Source: a virus
Reading direction: 5' to 3' (one strand)
IMG/VR virus record: IMGVR_UViG_3300027973_000043
Location: 1 to 64,000 of that record
DNA: 64,000 bases
The notes below the pieces were generated by a model. It did not search any database, was not told where the DNA came from, and saw only the letters and a list, made by a program, of their open reading frames with translations. Each line of letters opens with the position of its first letter. Within the stretch, counting starts at the first letter, position 1. Both the position numbers and the translations under genes were made by a program. Positions 11,564 to 60,621 of the stretch are shown here, piece by piece.

Positions 11564-11773
11564 ATGATTTATGAACCAAGATATCCAATTCCCGTGGTAA
11601 CACCTATAGGCGACGGATTTCTCTTGTATATTAAAGAAAATGGTATGCATGAAAACGATGTTTGGACAGTTGCTTTAAAAGATGGTGGAAAAGTTATGCA
11701 TTTTTTAACAAATCAAGTTCAAGTTCATTGTAACAATACATACAGTATAGAAAAAGTTCAAGAAAATTATTGA
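11564..11773 (+). CDS. Hypothetical protein
   Basis: 69-aa ORF with phage-like composition. Confidence 0.6.
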   Translation: MIYEPRYPIPVVTPIGDGFLLYIKENGMHENDVWTVALKDGGKVMHFLTNQVQVHCNNTYSIEKVQENY

Positions 11774-11807
11774 CATAGTTACATTGTTATAGTATTATAA
11801 CAATCCT

Positions 11808-12272
11808 ATGATTACCTTAGCAAAAGCACTAAAAGTAAAAAACCGTCTTGTTGGAGAATTATCAAGCTTACAAGCTGTTGCTCGTCAACACAACTCTCTT
11901 CCAAATGAAAGTCGTGAACAAAAAAGTGTTCAACTTCCTAAAGTTTGGGAAGATATTCAAAACACTTCTAATCGTATTGTTGAGTTAAAGAGTAAAATTG
12001 CTATAGCAACATCACCGATTACTCCATATCTAGTTGATCTTGCAGAAACTAAAGGCACAATTTCTTTTCTTGAAAGCCTACCAATTAAAGAAGGTAAAGA
12101 AGATACACAAATTGGTTATGGTGTAAACTCTTCTCTTAAAACAGTTGTTTGGAACTCTTTTATTGATGAATCGTCTAAGAACAATCTCGTTAAAGAAAAC
12201 AAGAAGCGTCTTGATTTTCTTCAAGATAAAATTGACGAGTTTAATGCAATTACAAAAATAGATTTTGTATAA
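11808..12272 (+). CDS. DIP1984/septicolysin-like coiled-coil protein
   Basis: MITLAKALKVKNRL start and LQDKIDEFNA end; own TTGACA(11770)-N17-TATTAT promoter. Confidence 0.6.
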   Translation: MITLAKALKVKNRLVGELSSLQAVARQHNSLPNESREQKSVQLPKVWEDIQNTSNRIVELKSKIAIATSPITPYLVDLAETKGTISFLESLPIKEGKEDTQIGYGVNSSLKTVVWNSFIDESSKNNLVKENKKRLDFLQDKIDEFNAITKIDFV

Positions 12273-12273
12273 T

Positions 12274-12450
12274 TTTTCTCTCTTCCCTGAAACGGAAAAG
12301 CCATTATCAATACTTCAATGTATTGACCTAAATTCTCGATTCTGATTTTGAATTTTAAAGTTTAAATTTTTGACTTTTTAAATCTCAAAACGTAATCAGT
12401 AAAAATTAAAACGTGGTCGGCAGAATTACATAGTAAGGGAATTGAGAAAA
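12274..12450 (+). ncRNA. Candidate structured RNA with an internal 7-nt periodic array
   Basis: Closing stem TTTTCTC..TTCCCT / AGGGAA..GAGAAAA; hairpin TCAATAC/GTATTGA; GACC/GGTC flank about 12 heptamers. Confidence 0.5.
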
Positions 12451-12490
12451 CCAGGTTGAAAAACGTATTAGTGCCTTATTAAATACTTTT

Positions 12491-12706
12491 ATGAAAACAG
12501 AAATTATTGAAGTTAAAGGTACTATTACAAAAGTATTACCTAATGCTATGTATAGAGCAAAGTTATCAAACTTTGAAAAAGAAATACTTTGTTATCTTTG
12601 TGGTAAAATGAGTAAAAAATTTATTAAACCAGATTTAGGTGATAACGTTCTTATTGAAATGAGTGTAACAGACACAGAAAAAGGAAGAATTTCTCGAAAA
12701 TTTTAG
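12491..12706 (+). CDS. infA: Translation initiation factor IF-1
   Basis: IEVKGTITKVLPNAMYRAKL ... GKM ... GDNVLIEMS ... KGRI; 71 aa. Confidence 0.9.
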   Translation: MKTEIIEVKGTITKVLPNAMYRAKLSNFEKEILCYLCGKMSKKFIKPDLGDNVLIEMSVTDTEKGRISRKF

Positions 12707-13092: not shown

Positions 13093-13126
13093 AAAAAAAA
13101 CGCACTGAGAAATCAGTGCGTTTTTT
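13093..13126. terminator. Bidirectional intrinsic terminator
   Basis: A-run, CGCACTGA-GAAA-TCAGTGCG, T-run; lies between convergent genes. Confidence 0.85.
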
Positions 13127-46526: not shown

Positions 46527-46746
46527 ATATATTTACACTAAAAGTTTAGATTTTGGAAGAAAAAAGTGAAAATATTTTAACTTTCTTTAGATATTTTAGA
46601 TTATCGGGTAACTGTTGTCAACCCGCCACGCCTCTCCACGATGCGAAATTTGGCGGGTTTTTTATATCAAAAACATTAAGCAATAAAAAATCCTTTTACA
46701 GAAAACATTTAAATTATGAGTGATATATATTGGCTAAACAAGGACT

Positions 46747-59277: not shown

Positions 59278-60621
59278 TTATTCGGTTTGTGAACTTTCAA
59301 CAGTTTCAATATCAACTTCACCAGAGTCAAGTTGCTTGCTTTCATTTTCTAAAAAGTTAAAGCTCTTTAATTTGTAAACTTCCCAGCTATTAGGAATGTC
59401 TTTTCTTAACACAATACCTTCCGCCCATACGTCCTTCTGACAAAGTTTACACTTCTTTTCAAGATAATCTCGAATGAGGTTATTTAAGAAGTTTTCGTGC
59501 CAATGTTTTTCTGTAGAAAGTTCAGGATATAAATCCTTAGCTTTACCACTATAATGAAGAAGAGGAGTCTTTAAACCATAACGAGTACAATATTCCGTCA
59601 TTTGAGATGGTGAAAGCTCAAAAACATCACCATCGGTATTTGTATAAGTCATTCGATAAACAAAATAATCAAGAGAGCCTTGTGGACAAGAATAATCGTA
59701 ATCGCGCTGAATCATACTTCCAGTTGGAGTATAACCAACAATTTCGCCGTAAGCTGAATAACCCTTTTTTAAATGTGGATAAAGCTTGTCTGCAACAATC
59801 TTCCAAACATCAGTATCATAAAAATTGTTATTTTCTTTACCATTATCCATGATTTTATTTTTGATAACGCTACGAGAACTATAGATTAATCCGTATTCGG
59901 TTTCAACTACATTCAATCTAAGAAATTTACCAATTTTATCAAGAAGTGAAAGCTTCTTTTTAACAATAACATTAGAAACTACAAAAGAAGTACCATGATA
60001 CTTTTCGGTAATATTGATAAAATCATCTGGATTAATTTTATCAATATTACGCTTCAACTGTTCAGTAGAAGGATGGAAATGGAATTGATTTTCAACAAGA
60101 CGAGAAATGTATTTCTTAACATTACCTCTTGTCTTTTTCTTACCAGCTTCACCAAAGTTTCGCATTCCTTTTGGAATGTATTTCTTGCAAAAATAGTGTT
60201 CAAAGAAAAGGTCAAAATCACTTCCGACATATTTTTCAGTGATTTCAATCTTTTGATTCAAAATATCTTTAGCAAAAGATTCAAGCAGAGAAACAGGAAC
60301 TATATATCCTTCAGATTTTTCACCACGTAATTTTACTGCTTTTACTCTAGAATTTTCTTCAAACAGACCTTTTTGTTCTTTAATACGATTAAGTTCTTTA
60401 TCACGAAAAGAGTTTGTGTAAGAAAGAAACTCTTTTGAGATTGCACACTCAAGAGGAAAATAACAATAAATTCCATTTTCAGCATTAATACCAGTAATAA
60501 CATTATTACCGAAAAGAGATGTTACTTTGAGCTTATCAGCATTAGAATGCTGACGAAAATTTTCGATTTTAACAATAGATGCTAAATAATTAGGACTGTG
60601 ATTTTGTGATTTATTGAACAT
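59278..60621 (-). CDS. RNA ligase (DRB0094/Rnl2-like) with an N-terminal OB domain
   Basis: HSNADKL, KLRGEKSEG, TEKYHGTS (motif I), YGEIVG, EGIVLR, KLKS. Confidence 0.85.
   Translation of the reverse strand: MFNKSQNHSPNYLASIVKIENFRQHSNADKLKVTSLFGNNVITGINAENGIYCYFPLECAISKEFLSYTNSFRDKELNRIKEQKGLFEENSRVKAVKLRGEKSEGYIVPVSLLESFAKDILNQKIEITEKYVGSDFDLFFEHYFCKKYIPKGMRNFGEAGKKKTRGNVKKYISRLVENQFHFHPSTEQLKRNIDKINPDDFINITEKYHGTSFVVSNVIVKKKLSLLDKIGKFLRLNVVETEYGLIYSSRSVIKNKIMDNGKENNNFYDTDVWKIVADKLYPHLKKGYSAYGEIVGYTPTGSMIQRDYDYSCPQGSLDYFVYRMTYTNTDGDVFELSPSQMTEYCTRYGLKTPLLHYSGKAKDLYPELSTEKHWHENFLNNLIRDYLEKKCKLCQKDVWAEGIVLRKDIPNSWEVYKLKSFNFLENESKQLDSGEVDIETVESSQTE

What the first reader, a model, noticed from the sequence alone, without database searches (positions are those of the whole stretch)
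11770..12450. DIP1984-like protein followed by a structured RNA that loops out about 12 heptamer units
Seen: straight after the stop codon, 12274-12288 pairs with 12436-12450. Inside are a hairpin (TCAATAC 12307 / GTATTGA 12320) and short GCC/GGC and GACC/GGTC pairings. These enclose a periodic tract: ATTCTCG ATTCTG ATTTTGA ATTTTAA AGTTTAA ATTTTTG ACTTTTT AAATCTC AAAACGT AATCAGT AAAAATT AAAACGT. About 220 nt of non-coding DNA is unusual in this compact genome, and the gene has its own sigma70-like promoter. Inference: a protein-ncRNA pair in which an oligomeric coiled-coil protein binds one heptamer per subunit (TRAP-like logic or an RNA ruler), or a type III toxin-antitoxin-like or anti-defence unit. 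I know of no named system for it.
Basis: partly seen in the sequence, partly recalled or inferred. Interest (0 to 1): 0.8.

Follow-up and report, generated by a model that had tools for sequence, protein, structure and literature searches.

The report
Heptad-repeat RNA partnered with DIP1984-like gene
Right behind a small helical-protein gene this freshwater jumbo phage encodes a conserved, stem-closed RNA of about 177 bases carrying twelve evenly spaced 7-base units, and because gene and RNA travel together in phages and bacteria they are probably two halves of an undescribed protein-RNA particle.

Summary
Window 12274-12450 (+) is a conserved, stem-closed RNA that starts one base after the stop codon of a 154-aa DUF6847/DIP1984-like gene.

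- **Structure:** closing stem P1, a GCC/GGC helix and a hairpin all covary (89.8% of cells paired against 51.5% in shuffles).
- **Heptads:** the loop carries 12 Y-R-A triplets spaced 6-8 nt apart. Lag-7 autocorrelation has z = 4.8, reached by 0 of 500 shuffles.
- **Family-wide:** 103 of 128 non-identical homolog loci have an equivalent closing helix right after the stop codon. It is more stable on the gene's strand in 80 loci against 22, so it is RNA, not DNA.
- **Catalogues:** no Rfam family matches.
- **Context:** close relatives sit inside phage tRNA arrays, with tRNA-Ser starting 0-2 nt after P1. In bacteria an RtcB ligase gene follows in 15 of 41 loci.

Best reading: a dedicated protein-RNA particle linked to tRNA or RNA repair. 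Binding, stoichiometry and function are untested. The type III toxin-antitoxin reading is not supported. Notes of this scan report the same module on other DNA many times. My literature searches found no description of it.

The parts
11770..11798 (+). sigma-70-like promoter consensus (TTGACA-17-TATTAT), ending 9 nt before the ATG
   Evidence: Consensus scan, 11 of 12 matches. Not shown to be active.
11808..12272 (+). 154-aa helical protein gene, a divergent member of the DUF6847 / DIP1984 superfamily
   Evidence: ORF. NF038048 E=0.036, collinear. 17 of 74 relatives hit PF20935. A profile finds 2221 representative proteins at E<=1e-3.
12274..12450 (+). the whole stem-closed RNA (about 177 nt)
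   Evidence: Model R1 scores 176.6 bits here and finds relatives' RNAs behind their genes. Covariation. No Rfam match.
12274..12288 (+). P1, 5' arm (pyrimidine-rich), starting 1 nt after the stop codon
   Evidence: Pairs with 12436-12450. All 13 modelled P1 pairs show changes on both sides in relatives.
12289..12299 (+). conserved 5' junction GAAACGGAAAA
   Evidence: Nearly invariant in alignments A3 and A5 of the AT-rich phage clade.
12300..12302 (+). P2, 5' side (GCC), pairs with 12419-12421
   Evidence: 97.6% of cells paired; 2-4 sequences changed on both sides at each pair.
12307..12326 (+). P3 hairpin (UCAAUAC / GUAUUGA)
   Evidence: Helix 4: 90% paired with changes on both sides. It is absent in some relatives such as L044.
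12329..12416 (+). heptad tract: Y-R-A triplets at 12329, 12337, 12343, 12349, 12356, 12363, 12371, 12379, 12386, 12393, 12400 and 12407, plus UGG at 12414
   Evidence: Lag-7 z=4.8. Chain of 12 reached by 0 of 200 shuffles. The helices that folding predicts inside the tract show no covariation.
12419..12421 (+). P2, 3' side (GGC)
12422..12435 (+). conserved 3' junction AGAAUUACAUAGUA
   Evidence: AATTAC..AGTA is invariant in A3 and largely kept in A5.
12436..12450 (+). P1, 3' arm (purine-rich)
   Evidence: In relatives L010, L041, L042 and L046 a tRNA-Ser gene starts 0-2 nt after this arm.

Best explanation
The gene at 11808-12272 and the RNA at 12274-12450 form one two-part module. Both are transcribed together from the promoter-like site at 11770. 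The RNA folds so that its two ends pair (P1), followed by two conserved junction strands, a short helix P2 and a hairpin P3. Together these hold out a loop of about 90 nt that is not kept as helices and carries 12 Y-R-A triplets at 7-nt spacing. I infer that the small helical DUF6847-like protein binds this RNA, most simply several copies along the repeated units, to give a stable protein-RNA particle. I further infer that the particle works on tRNA or broken RNA (repair, protection or sensing).

Shown here: the RNA is real, conserved, on the gene's strand, and tied to the gene. Inferred: physical binding, one unit per protein copy, and the tie to RNA repair or tRNA as the function.
For: - Covariation on 14 RNAs: 89.8% of cells paired against 51.5% in shuffles and 45-50% with partners slid. 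All 20 pairs show changes on both sides, and 0 of 500 shuffles reach any measure.
- Of 128 non-identical homolog loci with at least 250 nt downstream, 103 have a long-range helix starting in the first 45 nt after the stop codon that beats 95% of 60 dinucleotide shuffles. The median 3' end lies 214 nt after the stop.
- That helix is more stable on the gene's strand in 80 loci, on the other strand in 22, with 1 tie; Wilcoxon p=1.5e-11.
- Model R1 gives 24 hits at E<0.01 in 98 sources and 1 in 17 further sources, all on the + strand. By the hit and stop coordinates they lie behind the homolog gene (L059 about 300 nt behind it).
- Lag 7 is the best lag among 3-15 in 42 of 97 loci, where chance expects about 7. 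Phase-specific composition carries 0.32 bits against 0.10 +/- 0.007 in shuffles.
- Helices predicted inside the tract are not conserved: 64.6% paired against 62.7% in shuffles.
- In 98 viral and metagenome loci no neighbouring gene recurs in more than 7 loci, apart from antisense ORFs over the gene itself. The RNA is the only constant partner.
- Context: RtcB lies downstream on the same strand in 15 of 41 bacterial loci, and in 20 loci by tblastn. An ATP-type RNA ligase lies nearby in 4 viral loci. The module sits inside tRNA arrays in L041, L010, L042, L046 and L005.
- A contig 12168-12439 from a lake RNA library bridges the stop codon into the RNA.
Against:
- The window's fragment (82 kb, 31% complete) holds no RtcB, and the 64-kb window holds no tRNA. 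Here the module lies between structural genes, so the functional context is borrowed from relatives.
- The RtcB link comes mostly from one phylum (Verrucomicrobiota) and may reflect few evolutionary events.
- Periodicity is clear in only part of the family: lag-7 z>=2 in 32 of 97 loci. The Y-R-A unit is not general: the chain is significant in 30 of 97 loci.
- The RNA-library contig may be DNA carry-over, and it shows no discrete ends.
- 25 of 128 loci lack a significant closing helix by my test.
- The alignment behind one search was fitted to the model, which favours pairing.
Confidence: 0.6

Rival explanations
1. The element is only a cis-acting 3' untranslated structure of the gene's own mRNA. 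It would protect the mRNA from 3' exonucleases or allow feedback control of the gene's translation, with no separate particle and no action in trans.
For: It starts 1-10 nt after the stop codon in 99 of 103 loci, although my search window was limited to the first 45 nt. No terminator-like site separates gene and RNA, and none follows before 12933. The RNA-library contig runs from the gene into the RNA.
Against: A structure of about 170-280 nt with conserved junction sequences, a maintained unpaired repeat array and, in 13 of 103 relatives, a tRNA T-loop-like motif is far more than mRNA end protection needs. In close relatives a tRNA gene abuts its 3' end. By recalled knowledge of RNase P, that cleavage would release it as a separate RNA.
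Confidence: 0.2
2. It is a toxin-antitoxin-like or counter-defence unit. The repeat RNA would neutralise the protein, as in type III systems, or act as a decoy for a host RNA-cutting defence enzyme.
For: A repeat-bearing RNA lies next to a small protein gene in phages. The single-stranded U-A-A / U-G-A units resemble cutting sites of some endoribonuclease toxins (recalled, not tested). RNA ligase genes lie nearby in relatives.
Against: The units are 7 nt and degenerate, not tandem 34-36-nt repeats, and they lie behind the gene. The protein and four relatives match no defence or toxin model; one relative gave only a weak coiled-coil match to LmuB, and Pfam shows no nuclease family. The module is chromosomal in many bacteria next to rtcB.
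Confidence: 0.12
3. It is a DNA-level element, such as a replication origin, a packaging or recombination site with short iterons, flanked by an inverted repeat.
For: It is AT-rich with short direct repeats flanked by an inverted repeat. The point just after 12450 is an insertion hot spot: about 840 nt are inserted there in the relative of run X3, and tRNA genes lie there in L041.
Against: The closing helix is more stable on the gene's strand in 80 of 103 loci against 22, with 419 G-U pairs on the + strand against 298 on the - strand. DNA pairing would not give this asymmetry. Compensatory changes keep the pairing while the sequence changes completely.
Confidence: 0.03

Closest known systems
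Ro60 (Rsr) with bacterial Y RNAs (YrlA/YrlB), encoded next to each other and, in Salmonella, in the rsr-yrlBA-rtcBA operon (PMC4201824, passages read; PMC7790460, abstract start in the search listing only)
   Same: A small non-coding RNA whose 5' and 3' ends pair, encoded beside its presumed partner protein. It occurs in both bacteria and phages and lies next to RtcB in some bacteria. A subset of relatives carries a T-loop-like motif (13 of 103), as Y RNAs of the YrlA type do (PMC4201824).
   Different: The record holds no TROVE/Ro60 gene and there is no Rfam Y RNA match. The partner is a 150-aa helical DUF6847-like protein, not a ring-shaped Ro60. The RNA carries a 7-nt repeat array. This window's copy has no T-arm.
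TRAP with the trp leader of Bacillus (recalled: an 11-subunit ring that binds 11 G/UAG triplets spaced 2-3 nt apart)
   Same: A row of about a dozen short triplet units at regular spacing in an unpaired stretch of RNA. This suggests one unit per protein subunit.
   Different: The period is 7, not 5-6. The units are Y-R-A. The array is closed by a long helix. The protein matches no TRAP family in Pfam. Binding and oligomer state are untested.
DIP1984 family / Pfam DUF6847 (NF038048, PF20935; PDB 3KDQ, 'uncharacterized conserved protein'; often annotated 'septicolysin')
   Same: The same length (about 150 aa) and a collinear full-length alignment. 17 of 74 relatives pass E<=0.01 to PF20935. Feature look-alikes in the ESM Atlas carry DUF6847.
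   Different: The window protein itself stays far below both curated cut-offs. No function is known for the family. My searches found no paper that links it to an RNA.
Type III toxin-antitoxin systems such as ToxIN (recalled)
   Same: A protein gene adjacent to a repeat-bearing non-coding RNA, in a phage setting.
   Different: Repeat length, order of gene and RNA, lack of a terminator between them, and no match to a toxin family.

Membership tests
DIP1984 family / DUF6847 (protein) | Score above the curated cut-off of NF038048 (70 bits) or PF20935 (27 bits) | tested here: not met
   NF038048 gives 14.2 bits, E=0.036. The window protein has no PF20935 hit.
DIP1984 family / DUF6847 (protein) | Homology through intermediate sequences, with the same length and a collinear alignment | tested here: met
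   17 of 74 aligned relatives hit PF20935, best E=5.9e-8. The alignment to NF038048 covers 2-144 of 149 positions. 3kdq_A aligns over 4-152 of 154 residues, but at E=2.2.
Bacterial Y RNA (YrlA type) with Ro60 | Encoded next to a Ro60/TROVE gene | tested here: not met
   PF05731 finds nothing in the 82-kb record, while the control genomes ring. The record is only 31% complete.
Bacterial Y RNA (YrlA type) with Ro60 | Match to an Rfam Y RNA model, or a tRNA-like T-arm domain | tested here: not met
   No Rfam hit at gathering score or at E<=10. This RNA has no T-loop motif, though 13 of 103 relatives have one.
Type III toxin-antitoxin | Tandem RNA repeats of about 34-36 nt upstream of an endoribonuclease toxin gene | tested here: not met
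   The period is 7, behind the gene. No toxin or defence family matches. The defining repeat length is recalled.
TRAP-like triplet-array binding | A regular array of triplets in unpaired RNA | tested here: met
   12 Y-R-A triplets at 6-8 nt spacing, reached by 0 of 200 shuffles. The interior helices are not conserved.
TRAP-like triplet-array binding | An oligomeric protein that binds one unit per subunit | not testable with these tools
No binding data exist.
Any Rfam 15 family (including ROOL, GOLLD, OLE, tmRNA, 6S) | Covariance-model match | tested here: not met
   The only gathering-level hit in the window is abiF at 46622-46658. Nothing better than E=3.8 lies in 12230-12520. ARAGORN finds no tRNA or tmRNA.

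The most novel reading that the evidence does not exclude
The module is a new class of protein-RNA particle shared by jumbo phages and bacteria. A stem-closed (possibly end-joined) RNA presents a row of 7-nt units that are coated by copies of a DUF6847-like protein. The particle would act in RNA damage control: as a sensor, decoy or scaffold for cut tRNA or RNA that works with RNA ligases (RtcB in bacteria, ATP-type ligases in phages). In phages it would help keep translation running against host RNA-cutting defences.
Probability: 0.25. Interest if true: 0.9.

Novelty: categorically new. Interest (0 to 1): 0.8.

Why it matters
If the pair is a particle, it adds a widespread and unstudied RNA class with a dedicated protein to the short list of bacterial and phage protein-RNA machines (tmRNA-SmpB, Ro-Y RNA, 6S, SRP). 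The protein family has 2221 representative clusters at E<=1e-3. It would give a function to DUF6847 ('septicolysin'), a name that appears to rest on annotation alone. It would also tie phage tRNA arrays and bacterial RtcB operons to a common RNA component. The regular heptad array makes it directly testable by comparing unit count with protein stoichiometry.

Tried and rejected
- **Thermodynamic folding of the gap.** z=-1.0 on + and -0.8 on -. Not informative for an AU-rich loop, so not used.
- **Rfam.** Searched at gathering score and at E<=10; nothing.
- **Ro60/TROVE and RtcB in the record.** None found. The record is 31% complete, so absence is not shown.
- **PF20935 six-frame search of the record.** Nothing.
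- **PDB by sequence.** Only coiled-coil noise. 3KDQ appears at E=2.2, collinear.
- **PADLOC.** No defence family.
- **GenBank phages.** blastn found no match. tblastn found two uncultured huge phages only.
- **Looking for the RNA without the gene.** A pattern scan of IMG/VR for the two junction motifs gave 46 stretches. Only 3 were real (contigs already known), and all 3 have the gene upstream. The other 43 look like chance matches inside other sequence. The pattern was too narrow to answer whether the RNA occurs without the gene.
- **GACC/GGTC pairing.** Not conserved.
- **Helices predicted inside the heptad tract.** No covariation.
- **Y-R-A as a family-wide unit.** Rejected: the chain is significant in only 30 of 97 loci.
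- **RNA evidence.** One lake RNA library (X15, contigs only) covers 12168-12439 with no head-to-tail joint. Contigs cannot show ends, strand or level, so neither a discrete transcript nor a circle is shown or excluded here. The parts of the stretch without cover in X15 are not evidence.
- **A promoter for the RNA alone.** TATAAT at 12268-12273 overlaps the stop codon, but it has no -35 element and is not conserved in relatives. Not claimed.
- **Supplementary tables of PMC10690425.** This catalogue of 10,006 candidate viral structured RNAs from IMG/VR may list this RNA.

Full report
**What the window is.** The window is the first 64 kb of an 82,488-base IMG/VR virus record that CheckV rates 31% complete, so it is a fragment of a jumbo phage. 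Public runs that hold this stretch are labelled freshwater or lake metagenomes.

The finding lies in a short block of + strand genes, running from 11072 to a terminator-like site at 13095-13126. This block sits between minus-strand structural genes: a 1780-aa protein, and a tail tube protein that matches phrog_45.

**The observation.**
- The ORF 11808-12272 encodes 154 aa.
- Straight after its TAA stop codon, 12274-12288 pairs with 12436-12450 at 13 of 15 positions.
- Inside lie GCC/GGC (12300-02 / 12419-21) and the hairpin 12307-13 / 12320-26.
- The remaining interior carries Y-R-A triplets at 12329, 12337, 12343, 12349, 12356, 12363, 12371, 12379, 12386, 12393, 12400 and 12407.
- Lag-7 autocorrelation of the interior is 0.59, z=4.8 against dinucleotide shuffles, reached by 0 of 500.
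- TRF reports a period-7 array at 12345-12370.
- A chain of 12 triplets at 6-8 nt spacing is reached by 0 of 200 shuffles.
- The gap holds no ORF of 30 aa or more.
- The promoter-like site TTGACA-17-TATTAT at 11770-11798 is there.
- The free energy of the whole gap is ordinary, as expected for an AU-rich loop.

**Is it conserved?** The protein has 29 close relatives among 63 candidates in the word-indexed search. I fetched loci that encode relatives:
- 33 from IMG/VR;
- 80 from metagenomes, the best of 171;
- 41 from bacterial genomes.

By eye and by MAFFT, the stretch behind the stop codon is alike in loci whose proteins are 87, 54, 43, 41 and 41% identical to the window's. The junction strands GAAA(C/A)GGAAAAGCC and GAAUUAC..AGUA are kept. 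The two arms of the closing stem differ completely in sequence yet still pair.

A covariance model built from six sequences then found the RNA on the + strand. It gave 24 hits at E<0.01 in 98 sources and 1 in 17 further sources. By comparison of hit and stop coordinates these lie behind the homolog gene, L059's about 300 nt behind it.

On the 14 distinct full-length matches:
- 89.8% of cells pair, against 51.5% in shuffles and 45-50% when the partners are slid;
- all 20 pairs show changes on both sides;
- no shuffle of 500 reaches any measure.

That alignment was fitted to the model, which favours pairing, so I added a test that uses no model. For each of 128 non-identical homolog loci with at least 250 nt downstream, I took the best duplex between the first 45 nt after the stop and the stretch 110-360 nt downstream. 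In 103 loci it beats 95% of 60 dinucleotide shuffles. The 3' arm ends at a median of 214 nt after the stop.

**RNA or DNA?** The same helices are more stable on the gene's strand in 80 loci and on the other strand in 22 (Wilcoxon p=1.5e-11). There are 419 G-U pairs on the + strand against 298 on the - strand. This asymmetry is expected for RNA made in the sense of the gene. It is not expected for a DNA element.

**The loop.**
- Across 97 loci with a supported closing helix, lag 7 is the best lag among 3-15 in 42, lag 14 in 11 and lag 6 in 12.
- A phase profile shows U at one position followed by A-rich positions. It carries 0.32 bits against 0.10 +/- 0.007 in shuffles.
- The helices that energy minimisation draws inside the window's tract have no comparative support: 64.6% paired against 62.7% in shuffles.
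- The Y-R-A core is a feature of the window's near relatives, not of the whole family.

So the tract is best read as an unpaired, periodic array.

**The protein.**
- It matches no Pfam, PHROG or PADLOC family on its own.
- NF038048 (DIP1984) gives E=0.036, far below its cut-off, though the alignment is collinear.
- 17 of 74 aligned relatives hit PF20935 (DUF6847), best E=5.9e-8.
- ESM Atlas look-alikes carry the same family.
- PDB entry 3KDQ aligns end to end, but only at E=2.2.
- A profile finds 2221 representative proteins at E<=1e-3, nearly all 140-170 aa long.

The protein is therefore a divergent branch of a large family of unknown function.

**Context.**
- In 98 viral and metagenome loci, no neighbouring gene recurs in more than 7 loci, apart from antisense ORFs over the gene itself. 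The RNA is the only constant partner.
- In the closest relatives the module lies inside the phage's tRNA array, and a tRNA-Ser gene starts 0-2 nt after the 3' arm of P1 in L010, L041, L042 and L046.
- Overall, a + strand tRNA starts within 450 nt of the stop in 6 of 80 viral and metagenome loci and in 0 of 34 bacterial loci.
- The window itself has no tRNA. The rest of the record has two.
- A relative in run X3 carries about 840 extra bases right after 12451.
- In 15 of 41 bacterial loci, mostly Verrucomicrobiota, a gene for an RtcB-family ligase follows on the same strand. tblastn finds RtcB in 20 loci in all.
- By eye, the gap between the gene and rtcB there holds the same kind of stem-closed, heptad-bearing RNA. 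Model R1, tuned to AT-rich phages, barely detects it.
- An ATP-type RNA ligase lies beside the module in 4 viral loci.
- The window's own phage encodes an RNA_ligase-family protein 47 kb away.
- Thirteen of 103 family RNAs carry a tRNA T-loop-like motif, against 0.56 expected.

**Expression.** One lake RNA library holds near-identical contigs. One of them, 12168-12439, runs from the gene into the RNA, and no head-to-tail joint appears. Contigs cannot show ends or levels, and DNA carry-over is possible. This is at most a hint of co-transcription.

**How it most likely works.** Gene and RNA are made as one transcript. The ribosome terminating at 12270-12272 must open P1, which starts one base later. 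This would favour loading of newly made protein onto its own RNA (inference).

The closed RNA presents about 12 units, which several protein copies could bind (inference). The tie to tRNA arrays, RtcB and RNA ligases points to work on tRNA or broken RNA (inference from context in relatives).

My confidences:
- that this is a real, conserved RNA bound genetically to this gene: about 0.9;
- that the two form a particle: about 0.6;
- that one protein copy binds per heptad: about 0.3.

**Comparison with what is known.** The logic is closest to Ro60 with Y RNAs (PMC4201824, passages read) and, for the array, to TRAP with the trp leader (recalled). Membership in both fails:
- the record has no TROVE gene;
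- there is no Rfam match;
- there is no TRAP-family match.

Type III toxin-antitoxin membership fails on repeat length, gene order and protein family.

Literature searches gave the following:
- DIP1984: one unrelated paper;
- DUF6847: none;
- septicolysin: the ten listed of 34 papers are genome or plasmid surveys and unrelated studies by their titles and abstract starts;
- RtcB with structured or circular RNA in phages: nothing that describes this pair in the listings.

A 2023 catalogue of candidate viral structured RNAs (PMC10690425, passages read) may contain this RNA without a name. Its supplements were not open to me.

**Earlier notes of this scan.** These report the same gene-plus-RNA module on many other genomes, including links to rtc operons and claims of circular forms. 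I tested the RtcB link, the heptad periodicity, the tRNA-array context and the 3KDQ/DUF6847 lead myself. I could not test the circular form here.

**Verdict.** The module is real, widespread and uncatalogued, and its function is open.

Noticed in passing
window 12491-12706 (+): A phage-encoded homolog of translation initiation factor IF-1 follows the RNA (Pfam eIF-1a E=2.6e-15; TIGR00008 60.5 bits against a cut-off of 61.15). TAAATA lies at 12480-12485, 5 nt before its ATG. A relative (L004) has the same gene 1.3 kb behind its module.
   Followed up: partly
window 46622-46658 (+): The only Rfam match at gathering level in the window is the abiF RNA motif (RF03085, 44.1 bits against 37). A first-reader note on this genome places the end of an IS607-like tnpA-tnpB element at 46623.
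   Followed up: no
window 59278-60621 (-): A 447-aa protein with an RNA_ligase domain (PF09414, 37.8 bits against a cut-off of 27). Its N-terminal part is weakly similar (E=1e-4) to the ligase that sits beside the module in L027.
   Followed up: partly
L004 719-871: After the RNA of this relative lies a short ORF that begins MILAKALKV, a diverged copy of the first codons of the partner gene. L007 holds another 21-residue start at a contig end. This looks like a recombination scar.
   Followed up: no
window 12451 and 11620-11723: Strain differences in public runs. A relative in X3 has about 840 extra bases right after the RNA's 3' end. Relatives in X6 and X10 lack 104 bases inside the small ORF 11564-11773.
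   Followed up: no
L038, L046, L053, L057, L088 and eight further loci, inside the RNA: A tRNA T-loop-like motif (GGTTCRANYC, often in a short hairpin) occurs in 13 of 103 family RNAs against 0.56 expected from shuffles. The window's copy has none.
   Followed up: partly
L128 and L129; L143 and L153: Two bacteria carry the gene-RNA-rtcB module twice: one Nibricoccus assembly with two copies 38 kb apart on one contig, and Geminisphaera colitermitum TAV2 with copies on two contigs.
   Followed up: no
L150 3839-4567 and L119 19-669: A sigma-70-family factor gene lies upstream of the module in 9 of 41 bacterial loci, and in some metagenome loci. It may be the module's regulator there.
   Followed up: no
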